Source: Candidatus Lindowbacteria bacterium RIFCSPLOWO2_12_FULL_62_27 (GTDB taxonomy: Bacteria > Lindowbacteria > 2-12-FULL-62-27). From it: DNA of 64,000 bases. A program made the translations under genes and the position numbers. The notes below the pieces were generated by a model. It searched no databases, had not been told where the DNA came from, and saw nothing but the letters and a program-made list of their open reading frames with translations. Positions 19,342-48,568 of this stretch are shown in pieces. The stretch lies in contig MFPR01000040.1 in NCBI GenBank assembly GCA_001784175.1, positions 44,955-108,954 of the forward strand, read 5' to 3'. The first letter of the stretch is position 1. Each line of letters opens with the position of its first letter.

Positions 19342-19393
19342 AGCATTCCACATATTATTGATAGCTGTTAGAGCGTTTGGTTTGCCTTAAATT

Positions 19394-19424
19394 ATCCCTC
19401 TCCCGTCCTATGCGGGAGAGGGAT
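19394..19424. repeat. GGGAGAGG-family hairpin (ATCCCTCTCCCG tcctatg CGGGAGAGGGAT), intergenic, terminator-like
   Basis: A 12-bp perfect stem between the lectin-like gene and paralog 2; followed by AAAAGGGG rather than a T-run. Confidence 0.7.
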
Positions 19425-19467
19425 AAAAGGGGAATGGATATGACAAGAAGGGAGGGACTTTATAGAT

Positions 19468-20001
19468 ATGGCGCCAAAAACTTGTGGTATTGGTGTAATT
19501 GTTTCGCTTCTGATCAGTATTCTCGGATTAGGAACCACCTTTGAGCAACCGAAATTCGAGATTGGCTTGGAAGGACAGTGGTTGTTGTCGGCAGGGGACA
19601 ATTACGAATGGAAGTTGCCCGAGTTTCATGCCGAGGGCTGGAAGACCACGCAGGTGCCTGCCGCGTGGGAGTCCCAAGGACTGACCGATTACAACGGGCA
19701 TGGCTGGTACCTGTACACCTTTGTCGTCCCCAAAGAGTGGGAGAAAACAGCCCGCGAGTTTATCCTCGACATGGGCCAGATTGACAACGAAGATGTCACG
19801 TATGTAAACGGCCAAGACGTCGGTTCTACCAGCGGCTGGAACGTACTCCGTTCCTACGGGATACCGAAACCCCTTGTGAAATTCGGAGAAAAAAACGTCA
19901 TCGTGGTCCGCATCTACGACCGCACAAGCGGCGGCATTCTTCGGGGTCCGATCAAACTCCGCAGCGGCGGCGTTGGCCGATTCGACGTCGAAGGCTATTA
20001 A
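19468..20001 (+). CDS. small secreted stand-alone jelly-roll domain protein, paralog 2 (lower GC than paralog 1)
   Basis: 177 aa, co-linear with the 17871..18407 product (..EWKLPEFHAEGWKTTQVPAAWESQGLTDYNGHGWYLYTFVVP..). Shine-Dalgarno-like AAGGGAGGG upstream. Confidence 0.7.
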   Translation: MAPKTCGIGVIVSLLISILGLGTTFEQPKFEIGLEGQWLLSAGDNYEWKLPEFHAEGWKTTQVPAAWESQGLTDYNGHGWYLYTFVVPKEWEKTAREFILDMGQIDNEDVTYVNGQDVGSTSGWNVLRSYGIPKPLVKFGEKNVIVVRIYDRTSGGILRGPIKLRSGGVGRFDVEGY

Positions 20002-26456: not shown

Positions 26457-27676
26457 GAAGGAGATTTTGGATTTTGGATTTTGGATTTTGGATTGTCGGG
26501 ATACTTCTGTGCTGGAGCCTCTCGGCCGTCGCCGCGCAGCCGCCCGCTGCGACGCTCCTGTTTGCGCCGCCTGGCGCCGGGAGCGTCGGTATGTCGGCCG
26601 CCGGCGCCGAGGACATCGGGTCGGCCCTCTGGCACAACCCGGCCGGACTTGTGCATCTGCGGTACCGCGAGATCGAGGCCGGGTTTGGCAGCAACTCGAA
26701 CGGATTCGACGCGCACGCCGGATATTTCGACCCGGGTAAACCCATTCTCGGTTTGCCGATGGCGTTCCGCTTCGACGCGCTGACCTCCAACGTCCTTCTC
26801 AGCGACACCAGCCCGGATCGGAAGTTCGGCGACGGCCATCTGATCGCCGTTTCCGCCGGCGCCGGTTTTTACGCCGCTTCGCGGTTGTCGCTCGGTGCGG
26901 CCACGCGGTTCTTCCATCTGAAAGCTCCGGCCGGAAACGGCGTTGGCGCCGTCGCGGATCTCGGCGCGATCTACCGCCCCGGCGAATTGATCCGATTCTC
27001 ATACGGCATCAAAAACCTTGGCTTCGTATCCAGCATTCCCGGTAGCCAGGGCGACATGCCCGTGACCCAGCTTTTGGGCGTTCACGTCAAATCCCCCGCG
27101 CGGGGCAACATCGCGATGGACGCCGTCCTGGGCTGGCCGGCCGACCTCAAGGGCTTCTGGAGTGTGGCCGGGACCTACCGGTTCACGGAGTCGTTGGGCA
27201 TGCGATTTCATCTGGCCGAGGCCAAAGACATCCCGGTCATCGACGGGCGCGGGATTGGATTCTTTCTAAACACATATTGGGGCAAGTTCGATCTGTCGTA
27301 TCAGTTGGCGGAGCTTGGAAATTTCCTCAGGTTCACCTGGATCCGCCGATCGAGCCGGCCCCCTGAAACCTACCCACCCCTCCTCCGGAGCCGGCCGCGT
27401 CCCCCCCCCGCCGCGGGCTCTATTATATATGGAGAGGCGGAAGGTGAACCTGCGAAGGAAAAGACCGGGTCGCCGGCCGGATCAGCGCCTCCGGCGCCGC
27501 CCGGGCGGATCAAGGATGCCGAAGGCACCCCGGCGGTGGCGACGCCGGTGGACGCGGAACCGCCGTCCACGGAGGAGTTTTTCCGTCCGGCCCCCAAGCG
27601 TCCTTCTGTGCCCGAAGGTCCGGCCGCCGACGCCGACGCCCCGGCGGCCGTCGCTGTCCCGGTGGACGAACGATGA
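26453..27676 (+). CDS. second PorV/PorQ-family-like outer-membrane protein with a Pro/Ala-rich low-complexity C-terminal tail
   Basis: ATGA overlap with the upstream gene. N-terminus MRRRFWILDFGFWIVGILLCWSLSAVAA (heptamer element plus signal peptide). ..GSVGMSAAGAEDIGSALWHNPAGL motif. The C-terminal 100 aa are P/A/E-rich and include an in-frame GSAPPAPP element. Confidence 0.5.
   Translation: MRRRFWILDFGFWIVGILLCWSLSAVAAQPPAATLLFAPPGAGSVGMSAAGAEDIGSALWHNPAGLVHLRYREIEAGFGSNSNGFDAHAGYFDPGKPILGLPMAFRFDALTSNVLLSDTSPDRKFGDGHLIAVSAGAGFYAASRLSLGAATRFFHLKAPAGNGVGAVADLGAIYRPGELIRFSYGIKNLGFVSSIPGSQGDMPVTQLLGVHVKSPARGNIAMDAVLGWPADLKGFWSVAGTYRFTESLGMRFHLAEAKDIPVIDGRGIGFFLNTYWGKFDLSYQLAELGNFLRFTWIRRSSRPPETYPPLLRSRPRPPPAAGSIIYGEAEGEPAKEKTGSPAGSAPPAPPGRIKDAEGTPAVATPVDAEPPSTEEFFRPAPKRPSVPEGPAADADAPAAVAVPVDER
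26463..26487. repeat. heptamer mini-element (GATTTTG)x3.5 at codons 4-12 of CDS 26453..27676 (RFWILDFGFWI)
   Basis: gattttggattttggattttggatt follows ATGAGAAGGA. Confidence 0.9.
27477..27504. repeat. partial copy of the second element family, in frame as ..GSAPPAPPG.. within the low-complexity tail of CDS 26453..27676
   Basis: ccggatcagcgcctccggcgccgcccgg. Confidence 0.6.
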
Positions 27677-30357: not shown

Positions 30358-30400
30358 CGCCGGGCGGTGGAACCCTATTTCACATCCACCGTCATTTTTC
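30358..30400. terminator. possible bidirectional terminator between convergent genes (CGGTGGA-N13-TCCACCG followed by TCATTTTT)
   Basis: 7-bp stem. Overlaps the 3' end of the minus-strand gene. Confidence 0.35.
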
Positions 30401-30869
30401 GGAGGTCGAAGGTTGCGATCCGGCCCGTGATGATTTCCATGCCGACGAGTCCGACTTCGGCGTCGGTCAGACTCAGAAGCACAACGATCCGGCGGCCGGA
30501 AACTTGAAGTGTCCCTCGATATAAAATGTCCTGCACGACGCTGCCGTCCGCCAATTGATATTGGGTCCGGTTGAAAGGCTCCAACCGCGCGCGCCGGCCG
30601 ATCTTTCGCGGCAACACGAGACTGCCGTTGAATCCGGTGTCCAGGATCGCGTTGAATTGAATGCGCTCACCCCTCATTCCAAGAATGGACACGTCTTCGA
30701 GCATCGGTTCGAGATTGGCCGTGATCTGGCCTTTCAGGAATGTCACCTGAAGCGAAAGAACGGGGTATGGATCTTGAAGGCCGTCGGATACCCGACGCGG
30801 ATGAGGCGCACGTCGCTGCCGTTTTTCATCGGCGGGCAACTCCGGACAATGTCGGACCCGCAGAAACAC
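30375..30869 (-). CDS. retropepsin-like (clan AA) aspartic protease domain protein
   Basis: DTG-type motif ..NAILDTGFNGSLVLP.. and an overall size of about 120-160 aa. The true start is probably internal (Met56, about 30704). Convergent with the sigma-54 activator gene. Confidence 0.5.
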   Translation of the reverse strand: MFLRVRHCPELPADEKRQRRAPHPRRVSDGLQDPYPVLSLQVTFLKGQITANLEPMLEDVSILGMRGERIQFNAILDTGFNGSLVLPRKIGRRARLEPFNRTQYQLADGSVVQDILYRGTLQVSGRRIVVLLSLTDAEVGLVGMEIITGRIATFDLRKMTVDVK

Positions 30870-31462: not shown

Positions 31463-31494
31463 AGCGCCAAACAAAAATGGGGTGGAGGTCAGAC

Positions 31495-34107
31495 ATGAAA
31501 ACTGAGATTTTAGATTTTAGATTTTGGATTTTGGATTCCAATAAGGGCGGTTTGAGATGGGCTACCGCGATTCTCATCCTGCTGCTCTGCGCCGGCCTTC
31601 CTGAGGCTCAGGCCGCGCTCAGCAAATCATCGCCGACCGGCGAGGAGGTCTGGCGCATCAACTGCGGCGCCACCGCCGCCGATTACGCCGATCCGGCCGG
31701 GAACACATGGGTCAAGGACGAGGATTTCTACTCCATTTACCGCTGGGGCTACATCAACGGCAACACCGCCTCCACCACCTCCAACATCACCAACACCTCC
31801 ACGCCCGAAATTTACAAGTCCAGCCGCTGGGGCGGAACGAACCTGTCCTACAAGGTCGAAGTCCCCAACGGCACCTACCGCGTCCGGCTCATGTTTGCGG
31901 AGACGTACTGGAACCAGGCCGGCAAGCGCGTGTTCAACGTGGCCCTCGAAGGCAACACGCTGTGGTCCTTCGTCGACATCTGGGCCTGGGCCGGCAATGC
32001 GATGAACAAGGCGATGGACCTGACGGCCGACGTGACGGTGACGGACGGCGTCCTCGACGTGACGTTTCCCGTCGTTCAGATGGACAACGCCTGCATCAGC
32101 GGGATCGAGGTCAAGGTCCTCACGCTGGCCGACGACGCGTTCCTCGATTTCGTGCAGAAAAAGATGTTCTGGTTTTACTGGAACGAGGCCGACGTTCAGA
32201 CCGGCCTCGTCAAATGGGGCGAGAACAATTTCGCCCAGGGGTACGGCAACACCTCCAGCATCGCCACCGATGGGTTCGCCCTCTCCATCTATACGATCGC
32301 CGCCAGCCGCGGATGGATCACGCGCCAGCAGGCGTACGATCGCGTCATGAAAATGCTGAATACGTTTGAGACTGTCATCCAGAACGTGCATGGTTTCTGG
32401 TGGCATTTCGTCTACACCGCCACCGGCGCGCGCGAGGGCACAACCGAAATCTCGACCGTCGACTCCGCGCTCTTTATCATGGGCGCGCTCCAGGCCGGCG
32501 AGTTTTTCCGAAGCGACCATCCGGACGTCGCGTCCAAGGCGGACCTTCTGTACCGCCGCATGGAGTGGAGCTGGTTTCTGAACGTCAATGCCGGCGATCC
32601 GTATCTGAACCGGTTCGTCAACATGGGCTGGAAGCCCGAGTATCAGCCGGGATCGCCGCACGGCTACGTCATCGCGAGCGGCCGGCCCGAAGGCGGTTAT
32701 TTCGTGAACGACTGGTGGAACCGGTACAGCGAATCGGTCTTCGTGAACTTCCTCGCGCTCGGCTCGCCCACCTACTCGGCCGGTCCGGCGGCTTGGACGG
32801 ACATGGGCAAGCCGTGGGTCGACGATTTTGGCTATCACTACGTGAACGAGCCGCCGCTTTTCACGCACCAGTTTCATCATCTCTATTACGACATGCGAAA
32901 CCGGCACGACGGCAAGGTCGACTACGTCGACAACACCCGCAAGGCCACGCAGGTCAACCGCCTCACGTGCGAGAACGACAGCCGCTATGAGCCCAAACGC
33001 TGGGGGCTGTCGGGTTCCAACGGGCCGACGGGCTATCAGGCCTACGGCGCCGGCACGGGCGGGTTCCACGACGGCACGGTCGATCCGGCCGCGCCCGCCG
33101 CCACGATGAACATCACGCCCACGGAGTCGATCCAGGCCACGCGGTTCATGTTCTTCCAGTACAAGCATCACATCTGGGGCCAGTACGGGTTTTCGGACGC
33201 GTTCAACGTGAGCGCCGACTGGAAGGACTGGCTCTTCGACGGCCTCAGCGCCGGCGCGCTCGTCATTGGCATCGAAAATTACCGCACCGGCATGGTGAGA
33301 AACGAGTTCATGAAAAATCCATACCTTGCGACCGCCTACGCTCAGGCCGGCATCAAGACCTTCGGCCAGTCCGCGCTCTACAACGCATCGACCGGCAGTG
33401 ACGCGCCGAACGCGTTCGACAACAACATGACCACGCGCTGGGGCTCGGCCTTCGCCGACCCGCAGTGGCTCGAAGTCGACTACGGCGCCGGACGGACGTT
33501 CAACAAGGTCACGATCAACTGGGAGGCGGCCTACGGCAAGGACTACAAGATCCAGGCGTCGTGGGACGCGAACACGTGGTGGGACGTCGCGACCGTCGTG
33601 AACGGCAACGGCGCCACGGACATCCTGACCTTCCCGATGAACACCGCCCGATACTGGAGAATGTACGGCACGAAACGCGGCACGGCGTGGGGCTATTCGA
33701 TCTGGGAGATGAAATTCGAGAACACGGTGAATCTCGCTCTGAACAAGCCGGCCACGTCCTCATCCAACGAAAACTCGGGCGTCACGGCGCCGAAGGCCTT
33801 CGACGGCAGCTTCACGACGCGCTGGGCGTCACTGTGGAGCGACCCGCAGTGGGTCCGGGTCGACCTCGGCTCGAACCAGAACGTGAGCCGCGTGATCCTG
33901 CACTGGGAGTACGCGTACGGCAAGGACTACAAAATCCAGACCTCGACGGACAACATCAACTGGACGGACCGCTTCACGGCGGTCAACGGCGACGGCGGCG
34001 TCGATGAGTGCCCGTTCACGGCCGTGAGCGCCCGGTACATCCGCATGTACGGCACCGCGCGCGGCACCGGGTTCGGGTATTCGCTGTGGGAGATGCAGGT
34101 GCAGTGA
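31495..34107 (+). CDS. secreted glycoside hydrolase: malectin-like CBM, then a GH144-like (alpha/alpha)6 catalytic domain, then two C-terminal F5/8 type C domains
   Basis: GGAGG 7 nt upstream of ATG 31495. N-terminus MKTEILDFRFWILDSNKGG followed by a signal peptide. Malectin-like ..WRINCGATAADYADPAGNTW..YRVRLMFAETYWNQAGKRVFNVALEGN..ISGIEV. Catalytic motifs DDAFLDFVQKKMFWFYWNEADVQTGLVK and IENYRTGMV. Two discoidin repeats ending GYSLWEMQVQ. Confidence 0.8.
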   Translation: MKTEILDFRFWILDSNKGGLRWATAILILLLCAGLPEAQAALSKSSPTGEEVWRINCGATAADYADPAGNTWVKDEDFYSIYRWGYINGNTASTTSNITNTSTPEIYKSSRWGGTNLSYKVEVPNGTYRVRLMFAETYWNQAGKRVFNVALEGNTLWSFVDIWAWAGNAMNKAMDLTADVTVTDGVLDVTFPVVQMDNACISGIEVKVLTLADDAFLDFVQKKMFWFYWNEADVQTGLVKWGENNFAQGYGNTSSIATDGFALSIYTIAASRGWITRQQAYDRVMKMLNTFETVIQNVHGFWWHFVYTATGAREGTTEISTVDSALFIMGALQAGEFFRSDHPDVASKADLLYRRMEWSWFLNVNAGDPYLNRFVNMGWKPEYQPGSPHGYVIASGRPEGGYFVNDWWNRYSESVFVNFLALGSPTYSAGPAAWTDMGKPWVDDFGYHYVNEPPLFTHQFHHLYYDMRNRHDGKVDYVDNTRKATQVNRLTCENDSRYEPKRWGLSGSNGPTGYQAYGAGTGGFHDGTVDPAAPAATMNITPTESIQATRFMFFQYKHHIWGQYGFSDAFNVSADWKDWLFDGLSAGALVIGIENYRTGMVRNEFMKNPYLATAYAQAGIKTFGQSALYNASTGSDAPNAFDNNMTTRWGSAFADPQWLEVDYGAGRTFNKVTINWEAAYGKDYKIQASWDANTWWDVATVVNGNGATDILTFPMNTARYWRMYGTKRGTAWGYSIWEMKFENTVNLALNKPATSSSNENSGVTAPKAFDGSFTTRWASLWSDPQWVRVDLGSNQNVSRVILHWEYAYGKDYKIQTSTDNINWTDRFTAVNGDGGVDECPFTAVSARYIRMYGTARGTGFGYSLWEMQVQ
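31506..31537. repeat. heptamer mini-element (GATTTTR)x4.5 at codons 4-14 of CDS 31495..34107 (EILDFRFWILD)
   Basis: gattttagattttagattttggattttggatt follows ATGAAAACTGA. Confidence 0.9.
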
Positions 34108-35750
34108 AAAAACCTGAGATTTTAGATTTTAGATTTTCGATTTTTCTTCCATTCTGTCCAAAGTCGTCGAAGGAGTCGTTGGCCATAGTCTTACTGGCGT
34201 GCGCCGTTGTGATGTGCCCGGAGGCAACTTGGGCAACGCATCTGGGCACCTGCCATGACAGCAATCACGTGACATGTTTCTCGACGGCCCCCAGTCACAC
34301 TCAGGAATTCATCAGCATGGGCTGGCTTAGCTACCATGACATCGCGTTCGGATTGCTGATCAAACCGGGATGGAAACAGGGAATCCTGAGCGCATATAAT
34401 TGGAGTCCGCACGTTCCCAACCATATCACGGAGGTAACCAGTGTGGATCTGGTGCGATGGGATGTTTTCGGCGATTTTCCAGGCTATTATCGAGACGCGC
34501 TGGCTTCAGGAATCCCAGTTCCGATCGCATCGGGTGGGGGCACCGTAGGTTCCTTCTTGCCAACGCGCGGGGGAACATTTTATACGGGAACGAAGATAAA
34601 CATCTCCGCACGCTATGAGGGTTATTATCCATGGCTGGAGCCGCTGGGCGGATATAATTCAGACGGATCGGCCAACAAAGGTCCCATCGAGTTCACCAAT
34701 CCAGAGTGGGGCGTGGGACCCCAATTCGACGAATGGGGGTTTGAGGTGAGACCATGGTGCATCGCATTGCAGATGCGGCTTGAGAATTTGACCCCCGGGG
34801 ACCTGAATCCGCCGGAAGAGGTTCAGCCAAAGAACGCCGATCCGGGCGATCCCACGAATGAGAAATCGAAGGTCCGATCCAGGTTGTCCGGAACATCTGT
34901 GCCGTCCTTGCTGGCGGGGGGTGCATACGTGGGGTGGTATATCGAAGGAGAAGGCGGGGGACATGAGGAAGCGCATCACGCCACACCAAGACCGGTCGGC
35001 ACGTTTGAGAATGGCCAGTGGCTGCATTTCGAACACGTGCCGACGGGGCAGACCGTCGATCTCACTCGGACATATACCGCTGGCGAATTCGGGGGCGACG
35101 AGCGAATCAAGGTTGTGGTCAGCGACAAGCCGTTGACTGCTTCGAGCCTTCCGAGATCGACGCTTGCGGAACAGGCGTCGGCCCGGGAGGTATTGAAGCA
35201 GGAGGGTATCGCGGCGGCGGGAAACGACGAAGGCGTCCGCGGCGACGGCACCGGCTGCGCGTTTGGGACCGACGTCTACGTTTTCTGGCCGGGCCTTCAA
35301 GAAATCTCGGATGGGGCGGATTACGAAAAAACGGGACAAACCCCTTCACACCCTCGGAACCACCATGGAACCTCAGATTTGATTATGGCTATTGAGAAAG
35401 TAGCCTTTAAATATAGAGAAACCACGAAGAACAGCCCCGGTCTTGATGAAGCCATTATCCGTGTCAATGACATGAGTCTTGAGAATGGCGGAGCGTTTGA
35501 TATTTGCGCCACGTGGGATATACACGATAATAGTTGTTTGTCTGATCCCAAACCGCCGACGGCTCACAATCGTCACAGAACGGGAAAGAGTGTGGATATC
35601 AGTAAATTCCATAAAGTGATATCTACTGGGTCCGTGGTCCTCCTCGGGAATAATACCTTTCTGGTACAACAATTATTTACAAATGAAAATCTAAATATTT
35701 CTTCACAATTATTTGCGCAATTCGGAAGACTGCATTTTGAACTGCAATGA
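34104..35750 (+). CDS. secreted protein with a C-terminal LAS/M15-like zinc-peptidase-like domain (possible peptidoglycan hydrolase); the C-terminal domain is low-GC
   Basis: The GTG at 34104 overlaps the upstream stop (GTGA); a TTG at about 34179 is an alternative start. N-terminus KKPEILDFRFSIF.. (heptamer element) followed by a signal peptide. C-terminal motif ..AHNRHRTGKSVDIS.. (H-x-T-G-x-x-V-D as in VanY/M15). GC content drops sharply from about 35330. Confidence 0.55.
   Translation: MKKPEILDFRFSIFLPFCPKSSKESLAIVLLACAVVMCPEATWATHLGTCHDSNHVTCFSTAPSHTQEFISMGWLSYHDIAFGLLIKPGWKQGILSAYNWSPHVPNHITEVTSVDLVRWDVFGDFPGYYRDALASGIPVPIASGGGTVGSFLPTRGGTFYTGTKINISARYEGYYPWLEPLGGYNSDGSANKGPIEFTNPEWGVGPQFDEWGFEVRPWCIALQMRLENLTPGDLNPPEEVQPKNADPGDPTNEKSKVRSRLSGTSVPSLLAGGAYVGWYIEGEGGGHEEAHHATPRPVGTFENGQWLHFEHVPTGQTVDLTRTYTAGEFGGDERIKVVVSDKPLTASSLPRSTLAEQASAREVLKQEGIAAAGNDEGVRGDGTGCAFGTDVYVFWPGLQEISDGADYEKTGQTPSHPRNHHGTSDLIMAIEKVAFKYRETTKNSPGLDEAIIRVNDMSLENGGAFDICATWDIHDNSCLSDPKPPTAHNRHRTGKSVDISKFHKVISTGSVVLLGNNTFLVQQLFTNENLNISSQLFAQFGRLHFELQ
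34117..34144. repeat. degenerate heptamer mini-element at codons 5-14 of CDS 34104..35750 (EILDFRFSIF)
   Basis: gattttagattttagattttcgattttt follows GTGAAAAAACCTGA. Confidence 0.85.
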
Positions 35751-36835
35751 AAAAAACAAACGTGGTGTTATCTCTGATTCCATTTTCGGTGGTCATCGTT
35801 ACCAACTGTTGGGCATTTGAACCAAGAGAAAATTTGCCGGTTCTCAGACAGATACGATTATCGTCCACGATTGCTAAGATTGCCGGGTCGATAGATTATT
35901 ATGAATATGACTACTCATTATACAATTCCAACACGAACAGTGGAAGTGTCATGTCAATTGTTATCGATCTGACGGAGCGGGCGAAGAGAATACAACAATT
36001 CAATAGTTCTGTCGGATTTGTGGACAATCGTATGGCGGGGTTTGGAAAGGAGCATGGATATCCCCCAATTGTGGCGGTGAGCGATCTAAAAATTCCAGAC
36101 CGCTGGTTTGGCTTTTTAGGATCGGTTGCCGTCAACTGGGTTGTGCATGGAAGTCAGGATGATCATCCATGGTTGGTAGTCCCCGGAAAATCATTGCAAG
36201 GTCTTGGATTTAAGTCACCGGCGGTGCCGGGTATTACAACATTCGTGGTAACACCTGTCTTGGATCTTTCCAAGTTCTATCCGGACATTCATGATGTTAC
36301 CGGTGGATTGGAAGAAGAAAACGCTTTAATGCGACAGATAAATCAAGATCGTGATGCCATTAAATTTACCGGCAGGACATTGGGACCTGTGGCTCCACCG
36401 GTTGATTTATCAGAACTATGCGATACATTTATCCTCGACCTGATCGGCCAAGTGCGAGAGGCGGAGGTATTGGGCTGGATCAAGCACGACCTGCGGAAAG
36501 ACCGGGACGACGATGACGACCACGGCAAGCGGACGGTCGACGAGAAAGGCAAGAAGAAAGGCCGCGACAAAGACGATGACGAAGACGACGACAACGGCGA
36601 TGACGACGATTCCGACCTCGACGAGAAGAACAGGGGCCTGCCGGGTGTGGCGAAGTCGATCATCAAGAAGCTGACGAAGGTGCGTCAGGAGTGTCTGCGT
36701 GAGAAGTTCGGGATCGCCCGTGAGAAACTGCGGGCGCTGATCAAGCAGGTGAGCGCGCAGCGAGGGAAGCACTTGACCGATGAGGCCTATTATCTGATCC
36801 GATTCAACGCGGAATTTCTGCTTGAAAAAATATAA
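35747..36835 (+). CDS. hypothetical periplasmic protein with an extreme K/R/D/E-rich low-complexity C-terminal region; low-GC; coupled to the upstream gene (ATGA)
   Basis: Signal peptide MKKTNVVLSLIPFSVVIVTNCWA. ..RDDDDDHGKRTVDEKGKKKGRDKDDDEDDDNGDDDDSDLDEKNRG.. tract. No catalytic motifs. Confidence 0.55.
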   Translation: MKKTNVVLSLIPFSVVIVTNCWAFEPRENLPVLRQIRLSSTIAKIAGSIDYYEYDYSLYNSNTNSGSVMSIVIDLTERAKRIQQFNSSVGFVDNRMAGFGKEHGYPPIVAVSDLKIPDRWFGFLGSVAVNWVVHGSQDDHPWLVVPGKSLQGLGFKSPAVPGITTFVVTPVLDLSKFYPDIHDVTGGLEEENALMRQINQDRDAIKFTGRTLGPVAPPVDLSELCDTFILDLIGQVREAEVLGWIKHDLRKDRDDDDDHGKRTVDEKGKKKGRDKDDDEDDDNGDDDDSDLDEKNRGLPGVAKSIIKKLTKVRQECLREKFGIAREKLRALIKQVSAQRGKHLTDEAYYLIRFNAEFLLEKI

Positions 36836-36940
36836 GACGGTCGCCCCAATATGCTTGGTGGCCGTCCCTTTTCCATTTGGATGACAAACTTGGCCCACTT
36901 GCGGCTCTGGAGTTGCCAAAACAATAATGGAGGATGAGTC

Positions 36941-39316
36941 ATGAGAAACGACCTGCCAACATTTTTTTTTGGCATCACGAAGAAAGCGCTTACAATACTC
37001 ATACTGTCTGTGGTCGTCCTGTCACGCGCATGGGCGGCCTCCGACTATCTCCACACCATCGGCAACCGCGTGTACGACGAGAACAACACGGAGGTGTTCA
37101 TCACCGGCGTCAACTGGTTTGGATTCGAGACCACCGATTACGTGTTTCATGGTCTGTGGGCCAGAAACATGAACGACATGCTCAATCAGATGGCGGGACT
37201 GAAATTCAACGTCCTGCGCGTGCCGCTGTCGAGTGAGTTCATCAAGAAGGTCCGCACCGGGCAGACGGTGAAGCCCGGCAAGAGCAAGATCAACCGGAAC
37301 GTGAATCCTGATCTGGTGGGGAAAACGTCGATCGAAATCCTCGACATGGCCATCGCCTACTGCCGGACGATCGGCCTCAAGGTCATCCTCGACATGCACC
37401 GAACGCCCGCGTCCGGCATGATCGACCTCTGGTACAACTCGTCGATCACCGAAGAGGACTGGATGCTCAACTGGGAGTGGCTGGCTGGCCGCTACGGAGG
37501 CAACGACGCCGTCATCGGCGCCGACATTTTCAACGAGCCGCACGGCGTCGCGCGCTGGGACGGATCGAACTCGGCCGTGGACTGGCGGCGCGCGGCGCAA
37601 TTGTGCGGCAACCGGGTCATAGCCATCGAACCGAACTGGCTGATTTTCGTCGAAGGCGTCGAGACGCCGGACGGCGCCACCTACGGCTGGTGGGGCGGGA
37701 ACCTCCGCGGCGCCGCCTCGTATCCCGTCACGCTGAGCCGGCCCGACAAGCTCGTCTATTCTCCGCACGAATACGGGCCGGCGGTCTACAATCAGTGGTG
37801 GTTCCATAACGGCAGTTTTTCCTATGACTCACTGATGAGCGAGCACTGGAAACCGAGCTGGCTCTTCATCAACGATCAGGCCGACGTGCATCCCCTCCTG
37901 ATCGGCGAATGGGGCGGCCGCGAATACGACCTCGCGAGCGACAGCGGCCGATGGTTCAACTATCTTGTTCAGCTCATCGCCAACAAGAAACTCAATCACA
38001 CCTTCTGGTGCTGGAACCCCAACAGCGGTGACACCGGCGGCGTCCTGAACGACGACTGGACGACGGTGAACTGGGGAAAATACAACGTCATTCTGGCGAC
38101 CCTGTTCGGCAATGGACTCGGCCATACCGTCGGACTGGGCGGCGGCGCGCCCTGGCCAGGGTTCACTCAAAGCTGGCCCCGGGCCGTCGCATCGACCTAC
38201 GACGGAAACGGGGTGGAGCCGGCGAACGCCATCGACGGCAATTACAGCTCGCGCTGGAGTTCGACCTTCAACGACAATCAGTGGATCTCCATCGACTTTC
38301 AATCGAACCGTTCCTTCGACGGCGTGACGCTGACCTGGGAGGCGGCCTATGGCCGCGCGTATGAAATCCAGGTGTCGGCGGACGGCGCCAACTGGATGAC
38401 CGTGGCGGCCGTGACCGACGGCGACGGCGGACAGGATGTGGTCTCATTTTCGCCGCAGACGGCGCGGTACGTGAAAAAGAAGGGCGTGACGCGGGCGACA
38501 TCGTGGGGATACTCGCTCTATGAGTTTCAGATCAACGAGGTAATCCCCTCCATTTTCCCGATCGTCACCGAATCCTCCTACGAGTCCGCCGACCGGGACG
38601 GCCGCAAGGCCTTCGACGGCAGCATGGGCACGCGGTGGGCCTCAGAGTGGAGCGACCCGCAGTGGATCAAGGCCGATTACGGGACGGAGACGACCTTCAA
38701 CAAAATCACGATCGACTGGGAGTCCGCCTACGGGAAATCCTACGCGGTGGAGATGTCGCACAACAATTTCAACTGGACGCCCGTCTATTCGACCGCGACG
38801 GGTGACGGCGGGCAGGACCTCCTCACGTTCGAGCCGGTCTCTGCGCGGTACGTGCGGCTGTACGGCACCGAACGGGGAACAACGTATGGATATTCGATCT
38901 GGGAAATAAAAATCGAAAACACGATGGCCGCCATCTCCAATCTGGCGCTCGGTCGCACGGCCTACGCCTCCTCCATCGAGGATTCGGGCATGGAACCCAT
39001 CAGCGCCTTCGACGGCAACATCTCCACGCGCTGGGCCTCGCAGTGGTCCGACCCGCAGTGGCTGGCGGTCGACCTCGGGTCGGCGAAGACCGTCAGCCAG
39101 GTGACGCTCGACTGGGAATACGCGTCGGCACGGTCGTACAAAATCCAGGTGTCGCAGGACATGTCGAGCTGGACGGACGTCTACTCGACGACCACAGGCG
39201 ATGGCGGATACGACGATATCACTTTCCCGGCAGTCAGCGTGCGGTACGTGCGGATGTACGGCGCCCAGCGCGCCACGACGTTCGGGTACTCGCTGTGGGA
39301 GATGCAAGTACGGTGA
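36941..39316 (+). CDS. GH5-family endoglucanase (cellulase family A) with three C-terminal F5/8 type C domains
   Basis: GGAGG upstream. Signal peptide. GH5 motifs: VFITGVNWFGFET, IFNEPHG (acid/base E) and LIGEWGG (nucleophile E). Three discoidin repeats (..RWSSTFNDNQWISIDF.., ..RWASEWSDPQWIKADY.., ..RWASQWSDPQWLAVDLG..). Confidence 0.85.
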   Translation: MRNDLPTFFFGITKKALTILILSVVVLSRAWAASDYLHTIGNRVYDENNTEVFITGVNWFGFETTDYVFHGLWARNMNDMLNQMAGLKFNVLRVPLSSEFIKKVRTGQTVKPGKSKINRNVNPDLVGKTSIEILDMAIAYCRTIGLKVILDMHRTPASGMIDLWYNSSITEEDWMLNWEWLAGRYGGNDAVIGADIFNEPHGVARWDGSNSAVDWRRAAQLCGNRVIAIEPNWLIFVEGVETPDGATYGWWGGNLRGAASYPVTLSRPDKLVYSPHEYGPAVYNQWWFHNGSFSYDSLMSEHWKPSWLFINDQADVHPLLIGEWGGREYDLASDSGRWFNYLVQLIANKKLNHTFWCWNPNSGDTGGVLNDDWTTVNWGKYNVILATLFGNGLGHTVGLGGGAPWPGFTQSWPRAVASTYDGNGVEPANAIDGNYSSRWSSTFNDNQWISIDFQSNRSFDGVTLTWEAAYGRAYEIQVSADGANWMTVAAVTDGDGGQDVVSFSPQTARYVKKKGVTRATSWGYSLYEFQINEVIPSIFPIVTESSYESADRDGRKAFDGSMGTRWASEWSDPQWIKADYGTETTFNKITIDWESAYGKSYAVEMSHNNFNWTPVYSTATGDGGQDLLTFEPVSARYVRLYGTERGTTYGYSIWEIKIENTMAAISNLALGRTAYASSIEDSGMEPISAFDGNISTRWASQWSDPQWLAVDLGSAKTVSQVTLDWEYASARSYKIQVSQDMSSWTDVYSTTTGDGGYDDITFPAVSVRYVRMYGAQRATTFGYSLWEMQVR
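36981..36996. promoter_or_regulatory. cre-like motif AGAAAGCGCTTACAAT inside the first 20 codons of the GH5 gene
   Basis: 10-11 of 12 matches to the palindrome. Its position at +40 to +55 from the ATG makes a regulatory role less certain. Confidence 0.35.
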
Positions 39317-41937
39317 AAAAAGACGCGGGCGGCAGGGTTCGCGATTCCGGAGAGTGGATAATCGGTGTCGGGCTGATCCTGGTTGCGGCCGGATTTCTCG
39401 CTCTGTTCCTCTTATTTGTCGGCGCCCGGCAGGCCCACGCGGCCCTCAGCAAATCCTCGCCGGCCGGCGAGGAGGTCTGGCGGCTGAATTGCGGCGGAGC
39501 GAATTACGATTATACGGATCCCGCCGGCAACTGGTGGACGAGGGATGAGGCCTTTGCGTCCCTCTACCGCTGGGGCTATGCCAACGGATCAAATCGCTCG
39601 ACGGGGAACGCGATCTCCGGGACGACTCAGGGGCCCGTCTATCAGGACTGCCGCGAGGGCGGGACGACGTTGTCGTACAAAATCGAAGTACCGAACGGCA
39701 CGTACCGGGTGAGGCTCATGCTGGCGGAACTGCGCTGGACGGCCGCCGGAAAGAGGAAATTCAACATCGCGCTCGAGGGAACGACCCTGTGGACCAACGT
39801 CGATCCGTACGCACTGGCGGGCGGCCGGCACAAGGCGGTGGACTTGACGGCCGACGTGACGGTTAGCGACGGAGTGCTGGACGTGACGTTTCCGGCCGTG
39901 TACGCAGACAAGGCGTGCCTGAACGGGATCGAGATCAGGCCGCTCGGCGTGCCCGACGGCGCGTTTCTGGATTTCATTCAGAAAAAGATGTTCTGGTATT
40001 TCTGGAACGAAGCCGACGTCCAGACCGGGCTGGTCAAATCGACGGAGAACAACTGGAAAACCGGATACGGCACCGTGTCGAGCATCGCCGTCGACGGGTT
40101 TGCCCTCTCGGTCTACACGGTCGCCGCCGAACGCGGCTGGATCACGCGGCAGACGGCGTACGACCGTGTCATGAAAATGCTGACCTCGTTCGAAACGCGC
40201 CTCCAGAACGTCCACGGATTCTGGTATCACTTCGTCAACATCGGCACCGGCGCGCGCGAGATGAACAGCGAAGTCTCCACCGTCGATTCGGCGCTCTTCA
40301 TTCTCGGCGCGATTCAGGCCGGCCGGTATTTCTTGAGCGACCATCCGGATGTCTGGGCGAAAGCGGACCTCCTGTACCGCCGGATGGACTGGACGTGGTT
40401 TATGAACATCGGCAGTGACTGGCAGAAGCGGTTCGTGAACATGGGATGGAAACCGGAAAACGACGGGTATTCCTATATCATCTCCAGCGGTCGGCCCGAA
40501 GGCGGGTTTTTCTGCAACGACTGGTGGAACCGGTACAGCGAATCGATTTTCGTCACGCTTCTTGCGCTCGGATCTCCGACGCACTCGATCGGCCCGGCGG
40601 CTTGGACCGACATGGGTCGATGGTGGGCCGAGGCGTTCGGATACCGGTTCATCCAAGAACCGCCGCTCTTCACGCACCAGTACCACCATCTCTACATCGA
40701 TCTGCGAAACATCCACGACGGCGGCGCCGACTATTTCGAAAACAGCGTCCGGGCGGCGCAGACCAACCGCTTGACGTGCGTGACGGACGCGCAGGCGCGA
40801 TACGAGCCGGACCGCTGGGGCCTGACGGCCTGCGTCGGGCCGGACGGCGCCTATCACGCGTATGGCGGGTCGCCGGGCGGATCCCATGACGGCACGGTGG
40901 CGCCGACGGCTGCCGTGACCTCGGTGATGCTGACCCCGGCCGAATCGATCCGCGCGGCGCGGTACATGTTTTTCCAGTACAAGCATCACATCTGGGGCCG
41001 GTACGGGTTCACGGACGCGTTCAACGTCGGTCAAACCTGGAGAAGCCAGTTCGTGGACGGCCTCAATCAAGCGCCGATGATTCTGGCGATCGAAAACTAC
41101 AACGCCGGCCTCGTGCGAAACACGTTCATGAGCAATCCCTACATTCAGTCCGCCCTGGCGTTGGCGGGCTTCAAACCGTTTTCGGAAGAGCCGTTGGTGT
41201 CGTCGTCGACCTTCGAAGCGCCCGAACGAAACGGCGCGAAGGCGTTCGACGGGGATCCGAACACGCGGTGGGCCTCGCAGTGGTCCGACCCGCAGTGGCT
41301 CGAGATCGATTACGGGGGCGGGCGCACCTTCAATCAGGCAACGATCGACTGGGAATACGCGCATGGCCGGTCCTACAAGATCCAGTCCTCCTCGGACGGC
41401 GCGACCTGGGTCGATGCGTTCTCGACGTCGTCCGGAGACGGCGGTCAGGATGCGGCGGCGTTCGGCGAGATGACCGGCAGATTCTGGCGTCTCTATGGAA
41501 CGGAGCGCGGGACGCCGTACGGCTACTCGATCTGGGAAATGAAATACGAACACTCAGTCAATCTGGCGCTCAACAAAGTGGTGGCGGCATCCTCGATCGA
41601 AGACTCCGGCATGGAGCCGGCCCGCGCGGTGGATGGAGACTTGGGCACGCGGTGGGCTTCGCAGTGGAGCGACGCGCAATGGATATGGGTGGATCTCGGC
41701 TCGCCGCAGGCCATCCGCCGGGTGACCCTGCACTGGGAATACGCCTATGGGAAGGACTACACCCTCCAGACGTCGGACGACAGCTTCAACTGGACGACCC
41801 GCGCGACGATCGTGGGGGGTGACGGCGGCGTGGATGAGGTGCCGCTGGCGGGTGTGACCGCGCGATACGTGCGGATGGATGGCACGCGCCGCGGCACGCC
41901 GTACGGTTACTCACTGTGGGAATTTCAGGTTCAATAA
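39313..41937 (+). CDS. paralog of 31495..34107: malectin-like CBM, GH144-like catalytic domain and two F5/8 type C domains
   Basis: The GTG at 39313 overlaps the upstream stop (GTGA, same junction as at 34104). TM/signal segment. Malectin-like ..WRLNCGGANYDYTDPAGNWW... Catalytic motifs DGAFLDFIQKKMFWYFWNEADVQTGLVK and IENYNAGLV. Two discoidin repeats. Confidence 0.8.
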   Translation: MKKDAGGRVRDSGEWIIGVGLILVAAGFLALFLLFVGARQAHAALSKSSPAGEEVWRLNCGGANYDYTDPAGNWWTRDEAFASLYRWGYANGSNRSTGNAISGTTQGPVYQDCREGGTTLSYKIEVPNGTYRVRLMLAELRWTAAGKRKFNIALEGTTLWTNVDPYALAGGRHKAVDLTADVTVSDGVLDVTFPAVYADKACLNGIEIRPLGVPDGAFLDFIQKKMFWYFWNEADVQTGLVKSTENNWKTGYGTVSSIAVDGFALSVYTVAAERGWITRQTAYDRVMKMLTSFETRLQNVHGFWYHFVNIGTGAREMNSEVSTVDSALFILGAIQAGRYFLSDHPDVWAKADLLYRRMDWTWFMNIGSDWQKRFVNMGWKPENDGYSYIISSGRPEGGFFCNDWWNRYSESIFVTLLALGSPTHSIGPAAWTDMGRWWAEAFGYRFIQEPPLFTHQYHHLYIDLRNIHDGGADYFENSVRAAQTNRLTCVTDAQARYEPDRWGLTACVGPDGAYHAYGGSPGGSHDGTVAPTAAVTSVMLTPAESIRAARYMFFQYKHHIWGRYGFTDAFNVGQTWRSQFVDGLNQAPMILAIENYNAGLVRNTFMSNPYIQSALALAGFKPFSEEPLVSSSTFEAPERNGAKAFDGDPNTRWASQWSDPQWLEIDYGGGRTFNQATIDWEYAHGRSYKIQSSSDGATWVDAFSTSSGDGGQDAAAFGEMTGRFWRLYGTERGTPYGYSIWEMKYEHSVNLALNKVVAASSIEDSGMEPARAVDGDLGTRWASQWSDAQWIWVDLGSPQAIRRVTLHWEYAYGKDYTLQTSDDSFNWTTRATIVGGDGGVDEVPLAGVTARYVRMDGTRRGTPYGYSLWEFQVQ

Positions 41938-41973
41938 GACGATCGGCAACCCCTTGATTTCTCTCCTCGGAGT

Positions 41974-44433: not shown

Positions 44434-44534
44434 GGAGATCATCACCCGCGAAAATTCTGCATGTGGTAACAATCGCAATAACAGGTAGTTAAAGGCTTTT
44501 CGTTTTGGCGGCCTTGACTTTGTGTGCTACATGG

Positions 44535-44548
44535 TGTAAACGCTTACA
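44535..44548. promoter_or_regulatory. cre-like operator TGTAAACGCTTACA overlapping a putative -10 region, 119 nt upstream of ATG 44667; TTGACT -35-like box at 44511-44516
   Basis: 13 of 14 matches to TGTAAGCGCTTACA. Confidence 0.55.
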
Positions 44549-44666
44549 TGAGGGTCGGGAACGTGTCGGTCAAAATCGAGAGGTCGGGTCTGACAACTTT
44601 TGAAATTGAATAGATCGGGTTGGGACGCTGTCTTTTAGAAACGACAAAAAGAGATTAAAGGAGATT

Positions 44667-48368: not shown

Positions 48369-48410
48369 CCTCTGTCCCTAGCCCTCCAAGGGACAGGGGT
48401 TGAATTTTTT
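48369..48410 (+). terminator. intrinsic terminator after CDS 44667..48329
   Basis: Hairpin CTGTCCCT..AGGGACAGGGG followed by TTGAATTTTTT. Confidence 0.6.
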
Positions 48411-48462
48411 ATCCGCGGATGCGTCACTGCCGGCGTGGAGAGACGAAAAAGACGAAAAGGGG

Positions 48463-48523
48463 CCGGGTATTGACTAAAGTGACTTATTTCAGGCTGGAAC
48501 AAGTCAATAAAGTCAATACCCGG
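48463..48523. promoter_or_regulatory. 13-bp perfect inverted repeat CCGGGTATTGACT-N35-AGTCAATACCCGG upstream of CDS 48569..49981; direct repeats GACGAAAA x2 (48441-48458) and CCGTATGCGGCC-like x3 (48520-48566) flank it
   Basis: Directly readable. Function unknown (operator, attenuator or terminator). Confidence 0.5.
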
Positions 48524-48568
48524 CCCCATATGCGGCCCCCGTATGCGGCCCCGTATGCCCCGGCCCGT

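What the first reader, a model, noticed from the sequence alone, without database searches (positions are those of the whole stretch)
34104..36835. GC shift inside a gene: low-GC C-terminal LAS-peptidase-like domain plus coupled periplasmic partner (polymorphic toxin/immunity-like cassette)
Gene 34104..35750 is high-GC for its first two-thirds and abruptly AT-rich from about 35330. That point is exactly where a C-terminal domain with an H-x-T-G-x-x-V-D motif (VanY/M15 LAS-type zinc peptidase, possibly cell-wall active) begins. The AT-rich stretch continues through the first two-thirds of the ATGA-coupled downstream gene, which encodes a signal-peptide-bearing (periplasmic) protein with an extreme KR/DE tail. 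A variable-GC C-terminal enzymatic domain plus a tightly coupled downstream gene, with the partner located where a peptidoglycan hydrolase would act, is the signature of polymorphic toxin/immunity or bacteriocin/immunity modules.
Basis: inference. Interest (0 to 1): 0.65.

Follow-up and report, generated by a model that had tools for sequence, protein, structure and literature searches.

The report
Swappable cell-wall peptidase and partner cassette
A 1.1-kb AT-rich block spanning two overlapping genes encodes a MepA-like zinc cell-wall peptidase domain plus the matching half of an exported partner protein. The block has moved as one unit between gene copies, as expected of a toxin/antidote or enzyme/inhibitor pair, but the function is untested.

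Summary
The lowest-GC 1,100-bp stretch of the whole 64-kb window starts at 35320 (GC 0.435 against 0.606, about 4 SD). The drop lies mainly at third codon positions.

The low-GC block (35319-36418) is a discrete recombination cassette:
- It is about 92% identical in DNA to a locus with unrelated flanks and a diverged gene-1 body.
- Its left edge is the GC break.
- Its right edge (36419, motif CDTFILDL) is where an almost invariant C-terminal module of the partner begins.

The C-terminal domain of gene 1 is a LAS zinc peptidase, closest to E. coli MepA/M74 (hhalign 93.7%; H488, H491-x6-D498 and H544 conserved). It belongs to a family that no Pfam model detected in this protein.

Across 12 gene pairs, LAS divergence tracks divergence of the partner's N-terminal beta-sandwich (Mantel r 0.84, p 0.0002). 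It does not track the constant module.

Partner homologues also follow distant LAS proteins in four other loci, one annotated Elusimicrobiales, so the pair is an old two-gene module.

The toxin/immunity reading is partly supported. Cognate co-inheritance and cassette swapping fit it. Against it: no delivery domain, no change of toxin type, no strain-level polymorphism, and an endogenous enzyme/regulator pair remains possible.

The parts
34104..35750 (+). Gene 1: exported multi-domain protein (548 aa from GTG 34104). The true start may be about 34173, and the 477-aa call from ATG 34317 is probably too short. Order of parts: signal peptide, N-domain of unknown fold, Ig-like middle domain, LAS peptidase domain.
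   Evidence: ORF. No Pfam or NCBIfam hit. The full-length homologue P0012 aligns from residue 26, through the signal peptide.
34923..35139 (+). Middle domain (about residues 274-345) with the invariant motifs GGGHE..HH and Y.A.EFGG. Probably Ig-like (Big_1-like in distant relatives).
   Evidence: Invariant columns in A2. Weak Big_1 hits just upstream of the LAS domain in P0018, P0021 and P0025.
35280..35747 (+). LAS (MepA/M74-like) zinc peptidase domain, residues about 393-548.
   Evidence: 301 homologues at E<=1e-3, nearly all matching residues about 390-505. hhalign against E. coli MepA gives 93.7%. The PDB profile hits are all LAS enzymes, but weak.
35565..35597 (+). Catalytic and zinc motif H488-x2-H491-x6-D498 (AHNRHRTGKSVD). 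It aligns with MepA H110, H113 and D120.
35733..35735 (+). H544 (LHFEL), the invariant third histidine of the LAS triad. This protein belongs to the H-x-E subclass; many relatives have H-x-H.
   Evidence: Invariant column H169 in A3. It aligns with the HIH of Sonic hedgehog N-domain.
35319..36418 (+). Variable low-GC cassette (1,100 bp) that straddles the gene boundary. It encodes the LAS catalytic core plus the signal peptide and beta-sandwich domain of the partner.
   Evidence: It is the lowest-GC 1.1-kb stretch of the window. DNA homology to L007/L008 begins at 35319. Identity is about 92% up to about 36400. dS is 0.25-0.30 inside the cassette, against 2.0 to its left and 1.0 to its right.
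35747..36835 (+). Gene 2: exported partner protein (362 aa). Its start overlaps the gene-1 stop (ATGA).
   Evidence: The family has 11 members in 5.8 billion proteins. Remote homologues lie downstream of distant LAS genes.
35852..36256 (+). Partner N-terminal beta-sandwich (residues about 36-170), the fast-diverging 'specificity' domain.
   Evidence: AF2 model from a 10-sequence alignment, pLDDT 55-76 over the strands. Foldseek finds only generic Ig/macroglobulin-like sandwiches, none at E<=1e-3. Identity between most pairs is 14-40%.
36419..36835 (+). Constant module of the partner (from C225, CDTFILDLIGQVREA..GWIKHD). It is shared at DNA level by all Lindowbacteria-type paralogues.
   Evidence: blastn homology to 12 other loci starts at 36416-36419 (in L030 only from 36443) with 69-91% identity. 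Protein identity is about 70-85% between pairs.
36488..36637 (+). Hyper-charged, predicted disordered linker (residues 248-297; 21 D, 3 E, 8 K, 5 R).
   Evidence: It is absent from the partner homologues of other lineages.
36644..36832 (+). C-terminal three-helix bundle (residues 300-362), FIMAH-like.
   Evidence: AF2 pLDDT 83-90. Pfam FIMAH (PF22888) matches 9 of 10 family members, best E 2.1e-6; the window protein scores E 0.041, below the cut-off.

Best explanation
Gene 1 is an exported protein whose C-terminal domain is an active MepA-like (LAS) zinc peptidase. It most probably cleaves peptide stems or cross-links of peptidoglycan. Gene 2 is its translationally coupled, exported cognate partner. 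The partner's variable N-terminal beta-sandwich binds the LAS domain, most likely blocking it in the producer's periplasm as an inhibitor or immunity protein. Its near-invariant helical C-terminal module performs a common task such as docking or anchoring. In some related loci that task may involve an adjacent secreted retropepsin-like protease.

The peptidase core and the beta-sandwich must match each other. They therefore form a single 1.1-kb cassette (35319-36418) that is exchanged by recombination between diverged gene copies. The right-hand crossover anchor is the conserved constant module. The left-hand anchor is the conserved DY.K.G.T..HP.NH motif. The AT-rich third codon positions mark this cassette.

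Shown here: the domain identity at sequence level, the cassette boundaries, the mosaic history, the co-divergence, and conservation of the pair in other lineages.
Inferred: peptidoglycan as the substrate, direct binding, inhibition, and an antagonistic (toxin/immunity) role.
For: LAS identity:
- The exhaustive search gave 301 homologues of residues about 390-505.
- H416, H491, D498 and H544 are invariant, and N419/H420, N455/D456 and H488 nearly invariant, in 39 sequences.
- hhalign against E. coli MepA gives 93.7%, E 2e-7, with HxxH-x6-D in register.
- The best PDB profile hits are MepA, hedgehog N-domain and VanY-like enzymes only.
- Two homologues give weak Pfam M74 hits.
- dN/dS is 0.12 in the LAS segment, so it is under purifying selection.

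Cassette:
- Homology to L007/L008 starts at 35319, exactly at the GC break, and ends at the partner's stop codon.
- Identity is about 92% up to about 36400 and then 55-85%.
- dS is 0.30 and 0.25 inside the cassette, against 2.0 upstream and 1.0 in the constant module.
- Nearly all paralogues share DNA homology with the window from 36416-36419 onward.
- The middle region of gene 1 groups the window with L021 (47%) and L008 with L023 (53%). The LAS domain instead groups the window with L008 (85%).

Cognate pairing:
- LAS identity against partner-N identity gives Mantel r 0.84, p 0.0002. Without the two closest pairs it gives r 0.66, p 0.002.
- LAS identity against partner-C identity gives r 0.05, not significant.

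Pair conservation:
- A partner homologue (hhalign 98-99%) lies 10-45 nt downstream of distant LAS genes in L037, L038, L039 and L040.
- MAGs carry two or more pairs, and L014 has two in tandem.

Foreign character:
- The pair has the lowest GC3 among the long ORFs I listed in the window.
- It sits in unrelated contexts in other loci, for example between Rieske and cytochrome b genes in L011.

Precedent: a MepA-related gene has been noted next to a putative T6SS immunity homologue (PMC7400221).
Against: - No toxin-delivery or trafficking domain was found, and no secretion-system genes were seen nearby. A Sec signal alone places the enzyme in the producer's own periplasm.
- The catalytic domain is always the same fold, so only sequence varies, not the toxin type.
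- The partner is large and has a strongly conserved C-terminal module, which is unusual for immunity proteins.
- dN/dS in the beta-sandwich is 0.21 (0.36-0.41 at most), so this comparison shows no positive selection.
- All contigs carrying the identical GH5 neighbour have the same pair, so no presence/absence or allele polymorphism was seen.
- No structure model of the LAS domain was obtained. The single-sequence AF2 model had pLDDT 32. The window protein itself gives no Pfam hit even at E<=1.
- The partner's fold gave no informative match.
- The low GC3 is shared by all paralogous cassettes, including very diverged ones. A single recent foreign acquisition does not explain that.
Confidence: 0.5

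Rival explanations
1. Endogenous cell-wall remodelling. Gene 1 is a periplasmic MepA-type endopeptidase used on the cell's own sacculus. Gene 2 is its dedicated regulator, adaptor or localisation factor, either activating or restraining. The constant helical module docks all paralogous enzymes to one common envelope component.
For: E. coli MepA is itself a periplasmic housekeeping endopeptidase (annotation; established knowledge). Both proteins have only Sec signals. The pair, and the partner's two-domain architecture, are conserved in other lineages. The constant module is under strong purifying selection (dN/dS 0.16). No delivery domain was found. No strain polymorphism was seen.
Against: Housekeeping hydrolases do not normally show strongly atypical codon usage (GC3 0.40 against 0.85). 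Nor do they normally show mosaic cassette exchange, tandem paralogous pairs, or insertion into unrelated operons such as Rieske/cytochrome b or a glycan-degradation cluster. Rapid co-divergence of the enzyme and the partner domain is more typical of conflict systems.
Confidence: 0.3
2. Nutrient scavenging. The peptidase is a secreted degradative enzyme that helps digest microbial necromass (peptidoglycan peptides) alongside the glycoside hydrolases of this cluster. The partner is a helper such as a chaperone or binding module.
For: The pair lies inside a large cluster of exported glycoside hydrolases: GH94, GH144-like 'Glycoamylase', GH5 and GH2, with malectin and F5/8 type C modules. It may share a 5' repeat element with the upstream hydrolase gene. 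The partner's C-terminus is FIMAH-like, a helical Pfam domain.
Against: In the other loci the pair has quite different neighbours: sigma-70/primase, Rieske/cytochrome b, and haem biosynthesis genes. The glycan context is therefore not conserved. The codon usage differs sharply from the hydrolase genes. This reading does not explain one-to-one co-divergence with a partner.
Confidence: 0.1
3. Phage- or plasmid-derived lysis cassette (endolysin plus accessory gene) left in the chromosome.
For: LAS peptidases (M15, M23) are common phage endolysin domains (established knowledge). The composition is atypical.
Against: Neither protein has a PHROG hit. tblastn of the LAS domain finds nothing in 50,697 phage records or 72,556 plasmids. 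No phage, integrase or transposase genes and no flanking repeats are present. Both proteins carry Sec signals, and gene 1 has a long N-terminal region.
Confidence: 0.03
4. The GC shift is an artefact: chance, an assembly chimera, or a consequence of amino-acid composition only.
For: GC2 is also somewhat lower in the cassette (0.38-0.40 against 0.46-0.49).
Against: The drop is about 4 SD and is the extreme of the window. It lies mainly at third codon positions. The identical gene was read on 13 contigs from several samples. The same break is present in L007/L008 and, more weakly, in every paralogous pair.
Confidence: 0.01

Closest known systems
E. coli MepA, penicillin-insensitive murein endopeptidase (MEROPS/Pfam Peptidase_M74; LAS metallopeptidase)
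   Same: The core motifs are in the same order: (Y/H)xG, xDMxxxxGGxF, then H-x2-H-x-T-G-x-x-V-D. Window H488, H491 and D498 align with MepA H110, H113 and D120, and a C-terminal His motif follows. Both are exported by a Sec signal.
   Different: The window protein gives no Pfam M74 hit even at E<=1, and its homologues score below the curated cut-off (19.5 and 21.2 bits against 25). Here the domain is the C-terminal part of a 548-aa multi-domain protein. It carries a Cys-containing insert (DICATW..C) and ends in H-x-E rather than H-x-H. It is always followed by a dedicated partner gene; in E. coli K-12 no such gene flanks mepA.
Polymorphic toxin loci that diversify by C-terminal displacement (Rhs, CdiA-CT/CdiI)
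   Same: The C-terminal enzymatic domain and the adjacent downstream gene are replaced together. The change in composition falls exactly at the junction. A conserved sequence at the cassette edge can serve as a crossover point. The Rhs model of C-terminal displacement with a hyperconserved junction is described in PMC2935791. The AT-rich Rhs tips are recalled from memory.
   Different: There are no YD/RHS repeats, no TPS/FHA, PAAR or LXG delivery region, and no known junction motif. The swapped domain is always a LAS peptidase. The strongest conserved anchor lies 3' of the cassette, inside the partner gene, so the cassette replaces only the first 62% of the 'immunity' gene. No orphan tips were found.
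Periplasm-acting peptidoglycan-hydrolase toxins with periplasmic immunity proteins (T6SS Tse1/Tsi1 and Tae/Tai pairs; colicin M/Cmi; pesticin/Pim)
   Same: A cell-wall enzyme is encoded next to an exported protein located where the enzyme acts. Enzyme and partner co-diverge one to one. Several of the known immunity proteins are all-beta folds (from memory).
   Different: No T6SS, Tol/Ton translocation or receptor-binding domains were recognised. The partner is two to three times larger than those immunity proteins and has an invariant helical module. Inhibition has not been shown.
Other LAS enzymes: Sonic hedgehog N-domain, VanY/VanX (M15) and similar
   Same: The H-x6-D ... H zinc triad is shared. 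The profile aligns to Shh-N across both motifs, and to VanY-like carboxypeptidases.
   Different: These matches are only marginal (E 0.12-0.4).

Membership tests
LAS metallopeptidase superfamily | Zinc triad H-x6-D followed by a C-terminal His (H-x-H or equivalent) | tested here: met
   H491-x6-D498 and H544 are invariant in 39 aligned sequences. They are in register with MepA H113/D120 and with the Shh-N H...D...H triad.
LAS metallopeptidase superfamily | The LAS fold (central antiparallel sheet carrying the zinc ligands) | tested here: inconclusive
   The single-sequence AF2 model was unusable (pLDDT 32). Support is indirect only, from profile-profile similarity (93.7%).
Pfam Peptidase_M74 (MepA family) | Score above the curated gathering threshold (25 bits) | tested here: not met
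   The window protein gives no hit at E<=1. Homologues P0013 and P0064 score 19.5 and 21.2 bits. It is a related but separate family.
Pfam Peptidase_M74 (MepA family) | DD- or LD-endopeptidase activity on peptidoglycan | not testable with these tools
   This needs a biochemical assay.
Polymorphic toxin system | Conserved N-terminal secretion or trafficking region of a known class (RHS, TPS/FHA, PAAR, LXG, MAFB and others) | tested here: not met
   Gene 1 has no Pfam or NCBIfam hit. Only a Sec-type signal peptide is apparent.
Polymorphic toxin system | The C-terminal domain is replaced between otherwise related N-terminal bodies (mosaicism at a defined junction) | tested here: met
   The junction is at 35319. 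dS is 2.0 on the left and 0.30 on the right of it. Middle-region and LAS relationships are incongruent.
Polymorphic toxin system | Different toxin activities (unrelated folds) at the C-terminus across alleles | tested here: not met
   All 12 pairs, and the distant ones, carry the same LAS domain.
Polymorphic toxin system | An immediately downstream gene that co-varies with the C-terminal domain | tested here: met
   The genes overlap at ATGA. Mantel r is 0.84, p 0.0002, for LAS against the partner N-domain.
Polymorphic toxin system | Toxicity of the C-terminal domain and specific neutralisation by the cognate downstream protein | not testable with these tools
   This needs expression and competition experiments.
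Polymorphic toxin system | Allelic or presence/absence variation among close strains | tested here: not met
   All 11 contigs with the identical GH5 neighbour, and all 13 with identical gene 1, show the same arrangement. The look-up is by exact sequence, so only very close strains were sampled.
Pfam FIMAH domain (PF22888), partner C-terminus | Score above the curated threshold (24.8 bits) | tested here: inconclusive
   The window protein scores 14.9 bits, E 0.041. Nine of 10 family members match, with a best E of 2.1e-6. The AF2 model shows a three-helix bundle there.

The most novel reading that the evidence does not exclude
This would be a previously unrecognised two-gene system found in several bacterial lineages. 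It consists of a new LAS/MepA-like peptidase family plus a new family of exported two-domain partners. In Lindowbacteria-type genomes it behaves as a new class of polymorphic toxin/immunity locus. The immunity protein is modular, with a variable specificity beta-sandwich and an invariant helical module. The swappable cassette crosses the gene boundary, and its recombination anchor lies inside the immunity gene. In some loci a secreted retropepsin-like protease next to the constant module may act as a release or activation switch.
Probability: 0.3. Interest if true: 0.7.

Novelty: new variant of a known kind. Interest (0 to 1): 0.55.

Why it matters
If the pair is an enzyme/inhibitor or toxin/immunity system, three things follow.
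- It adds a MepA-like peptidase family, which no Pfam model detected here, to the set of cell-wall-targeting weapons or tightly controlled autolysins.
- It defines a partner family seen in at least two lineages, Lindowbacteria-type MAGs and an Elusimicrobiales MAG.
- It shows an unusual way of diversifying, in which the unit of exchange is half of one gene plus two-thirds of the next, bounded by a constant module inside the partner gene.

It also gives a practical rule. In these genomes a sharp GC3 drop inside a gene marks a recombination cassette, and its limits predict which protein surfaces must match.

The organisms are uncultured groundwater bacteria, so any defined envelope-active system is new information about their biology.

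Tried and rejected
- Pfam and NCBIfam scans of gene 1 found nothing.
- The word-index homologue search with gene 1 found only the protein itself.
- Single-sequence AF2 of gene 1 gave pLDDT 32 and was unusable.
The last structure job was then spent on the partner.
- The PDB profile search with the partner gave nothing meaningful.
- A literature search for 'FIMAH' found nothing relevant.
- PHROG and PADLOC scans gave no hits for either protein.
- tblastn of the LAS domain against phages and plasmids gave no match.
- A viral-contig scan with A3 was not possible because the alignment has no sufficiently conserved stretch.
- The promoter/terminator scan and the repeat search around the pair found nothing above chance and no flanking direct or inverted repeats. 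A transposon- or integron-like cassette was therefore rejected.
- Rfam found no RNA family in the window.
- The retropepsin-like ORF at 30375-30869 (-) was considered as a third component. It was rejected because it belongs to a different subfamily from the secreted retropepsin linked to partners elsewhere.

Full report
1. THE OBSERVATION

The two ORFs are as described. Gene 1 runs 34104-35750 inside the stop-to-stop ORF 34008-35750. Gene 2 runs 35747-36835. Its ATG overlaps the gene-1 TGA as ATGA.

GC in 200-bp windows is 0.58-0.65 up to 35300. It falls to 0.36-0.47 at 35300-35900, stays at 0.41-0.49 to about 36400, and recovers to 0.56-0.60. Among all 1,100-bp windows of the 64 kb, the lowest-GC one begins at 35320. 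Its GC is 0.435, against a mean of 0.606 and SD of 0.043.

The effect is mainly synonymous:
- Flanking hydrolase genes: GC3 0.87 and 0.84
- Gene-1 N-part: 0.64
- Peptidase segment: 0.40
- Partner N-half: 0.44
- Partner C-part: 0.74

Identical copies of gene 1 were read on 13 contigs from several samples, so the break is not an assembly artefact.

2. WHAT THE C-TERMINAL DOMAIN IS

Pfam and NCBIfam find nothing in gene 1. The word-index search finds only the protein itself. An exhaustive phmmer search of 1.84 billion representatives gave 301 hits at E<=1e-3. Almost all match residues about 390-505, in proteins of many architectures.

An alignment of 39 of these (A3) shows these motifs in order:
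- H-P-x-N-H-x-G-T
- N-D-M-S-L-x-x-G-G-x-F-D
- H-x-x-H-R-x-G-x-x-V-D
- a terminal H-x-H or H-x-E

Window residues H416, H491, D498 and H544 are invariant.

Comparisons with known families:
- Profile-profile comparison with E. coli MepA (sequence taken) gives 93.7% probability, E 2e-7. Window H488, H491 and D498 lie on MepA H110, H113 and D120. From memory of Marcyjaniak et al. 2004, H113, D120 and H211 are the zinc ligands.
- A profile search of the PDB returns, at marginal E-values (0.04-0.4), MepA, hedgehog N-domains and VanY-like carboxypeptidases as its best hits. All of these are LAS enzymes.
- Two homologues give sub-threshold Pfam M74 hits.

M74 (MepA) is the closest family rather than M15/VanY, and this is a separate family that no Pfam model detected in the window protein.

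I could not confirm the fold by a model.

3. WHAT THE PARTNER IS

The partner family has 11 members among 5.8 billion proteins. The genome scan places it in Candidatus Lindowbacteria-type MAGs. The window matches a contig of GCA_001782795.1, and its 61% GC fits the Rifle '62' Lindowbacteria bins. I therefore think the window is from that lineage.

The alignment shows a variable N-half and an almost invariant C-half that begins at CDTFILDLIGQVREA..GWIKHD. An AF2 model from the 10-sequence alignment has mean pLDDT 58 and shows:
- a beta-sandwich at residues 36-169 (pLDDT 55-76)
- a helix at 221-241
- a disordered, hyper-charged linker at 252-289
- a three-helix bundle at 300-361 (pLDDT 83-90)

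The bundle region matches Pfam FIMAH in 9 of 10 members. Foldseek gave only generic Ig- or macroglobulin-like matches. The 'KR/DE tail' is therefore an internal linker (74% charged), not a tail.

4. THE LOW-GC TRACT IS A RECOMBINATION CASSETTE

A partner that is 81% identical (P0003) lies on contigs L007-L009 with different downstream genes. blastn between the window and these contigs finds homology only from 35319 to 36840. That span starts at the GC break and ends at the partner's stop codon.

Identity along the span:
- about 40% before 35319
- about 92% from 35320 to about 36400
- 55-85% beyond that

Synonymous divergence:
- 2.0 (saturated) upstream of the break
- 0.30 in the LAS segment
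- 0.25 in the partner N-part
- 1.0 in the constant module

In nearly all other paralogous loci, DNA homology to the window begins at 36416-36419, the first codon of CDTFILDL. In this segment the window is closer to L010 (91%) than to L008.

The unit that was recently shared is therefore 35319-36418. It consists of the peptidase core plus the partner's signal peptide and beta-sandwich. On its right lies a constant module that every paralogue shares. On its left lies the conserved DY.K.G.T..HP.NH motif.

The body of gene 1 has a different history. Its middle region is closest to L021 (47%), and the L008 middle region is closest to L023 (53%). The LAS domains instead pair the window with L008 (85%).

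5. CO-DIVERGENCE

In 12 non-redundant pairs, LAS identity correlates with identity of the partner's N-domain. The Mantel r is 0.84, p 0.0002. Without the two closest pairs it is 0.66, p 0.002. Neither correlates with the constant module (r about 0.05).

Divergence rates differ between the parts for most pairs of loci:
- Partner N-domain: 14-40% identity, the fastest
- LAS domain: 26-55%
- Constant module: about 70-85%

dN/dS is 0.12 for the LAS segment and 0.21 for the partner N-part. Both are under purifying selection, and this single comparison shows no positive selection.

The GC dip over the same two segments is present in all eight pairs examined, not only in the window. I cannot explain why it persists in very diverged paralogues.

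6. THE PAIR IS OLDER AND WIDER THAN THE LINDOWBACTERIA FAMILY

For five distant LAS homologues I fetched the context. In four of them the next gene, 10-45 nt downstream, is a remote partner homologue with the same beta-sandwich plus helical architecture and no charged linker. These are L037 (annotated Elusimicrobiales), L038, L039 and L040, with hhalign probabilities of 98.1-99.2%. The fifth lies at a contig end.

Within Lindowbacteria-type MAGs there are two or more pairs per genome, and L014 has two in tandem. The contexts are unrelated:
- between Rieske and cytochrome b genes (L011)
- next to sigma-70 and primase genes (L010)
- inside a glycan-degradation cluster (the window)

A secreted retropepsin-like gene (DTGA motif) directly follows the partner in L007-9, L010 and L014b. 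It also follows stand-alone copies of the constant module in L019/L029. The window has no such gene; its retropepsin-like ORF at 30375-30869 belongs to another subfamily.

7. MECHANISM

Shown:
- an intact, selected LAS/MepA-like catalytic motif
- export signals on both proteins (by inspection)
- translational coupling
- a cassette that keeps the peptidase core and the partner's beta-sandwich together while the neighbouring parts have separate histories

Inferred:
- The beta-sandwich binds its own LAS domain. The simplest reason for such matching is inhibition of a dangerous cell-wall enzyme in the compartment where it first arrives.
- The constant module does something common to all paralogues, such as docking. 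It may be linked to the retropepsin.

I put 0.5 on this enzyme/cognate-inhibitor (toxin/immunity-like) model. I put 0.3 on an endogenous enzyme with a dedicated regulator and 0.1 on a scavenging role. Phage origin and artefact are close to zero. No PHROG, PADLOC, phage or plasmid match was found. No flanking repeats or mobile-element genes were found.

8. COMPARISON WITH KNOWN SYSTEMS

It works like a polymorphic toxin locus that diversifies by C-terminal displacement (Rhs model, PMC2935791). It also resembles periplasm-acting cell-wall toxins with periplasmic immunity proteins. A MepA-related gene next to a putative T6SS immunity homologue has been reported (PMC7400221).

It fails several membership tests for polymorphic toxins:
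- no known delivery region
- no change of toxin fold
- no strain-level polymorphism among the contigs available

It also differs in that the cassette replaces only the first 62% of the partner gene, and in that the partner has an invariant module.

I rate it a new variant of a known kind, with interest 0.55.

Noticed in passing
window 34116-34144, 31504-31532, 13902-13923, 26461-26482 (+); 9543-9564, 12927-12948, 15997-16018, 47522-47543 (-): A tandem 7-nt repeat (GAGATTTTRGATTTTRGATTTT) occurs at 8 places (10 overlapping matches at up to 3 mismatches, none expected by chance). On the + strand it sits at the annotated 5' ends of genes, including gene 1 and the upstream hydrolase. This creates the shared 'EILDFRF' N-terminus. 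It is found only in this organism's contigs, not in related loci. It may be a leader or regulatory element, and it makes the 34104 start of gene 1 doubtful.
   Followed up: partly
window 18442-19542: This is the second-lowest-GC island of the window (GC 0.455). It holds a 277-aa signal-peptide ORF (18508-19341) lying between two duplicated 177/178-aa genes (17871-18407 and 19468-20001). It looks like another insertion.
   Followed up: no
L007 2838-3275; L010 9206-9568; L014 5403-6059; L019 8321-8755; L029 1727-2185: A secreted retropepsin-like aspartic protease gene (DTGA motif) lies directly downstream of the partner gene in several related loci. In L019 its start overlaps the stop of a stand-alone constant module. 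It may be a third component of the system. The window has no such gene.
   Followed up: partly
L016 7896-8468 (= L026); L019 7935-8324 (= L029); L025 525-1088: These are stand-alone ORFs that encode only the constant C-terminal module of the partner, from CDTFILDL. L016 and L019 have no beta-sandwich and no LAS gene upstream, and each was recovered from two collections. L025 is cut by the contig end.
   Followed up: partly
window 30375-30869 (-): A small retropepsin-like ORF (DTGF motif; weak Pfam Asp_protease_2 hit, E 0.0012) without an obvious signal peptide. It belongs to a different subfamily from the partner-linked protease.
   Followed up: partly
L011 5857-10162; L037 1-1062; L040 2122-4533; window 41938-44433 and 48404-49978: Respiratory or thiol-redox genes lie next to several LAS/partner pairs. 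In L011 the pair is wedged between Rieske and cytochrome b genes with overlapping stops and starts. L037 has thioredoxin and AhpC-like genes upstream. L040 has cytochrome c assembly and haem biosynthesis genes downstream. The window has AhpC-TSA fusion proteins nearby. This could be coincidence.
   Followed up: no
window 240-25000 and 31477-48329: The window is a large cluster of exported glycan-active enzymes: GH94 phosphorylase-type, three or more 'Glycoamylase' (GH144-like) proteins with malectin and F5/8 type C modules, GH5, GH2, CBM30 proteins, a LacI regulator and a sigma-54 activator. It is probably a beta-glucan utilisation locus. The LAS/partner pair is compositionally foreign within it.
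   Followed up: partly
window 34071-34112 and 39280-39321: The 3' ends of two hydrolase genes and the GTGA stop/start junctions after them are 90% identical over 42 nt. The pair may therefore have been inserted at a junction that originally linked two hydrolase genes.
   Followed up: no
L032 (GCA_001782795.1 MFPQ01000037.1) 3329-5895: In the public MAG record, gene 1 is called as 493 aa and the partner only as a 121-aa fragment. Other assemblies and 362 aa. Annotations of this pair in public records are inconsistent.
   Followed up: no
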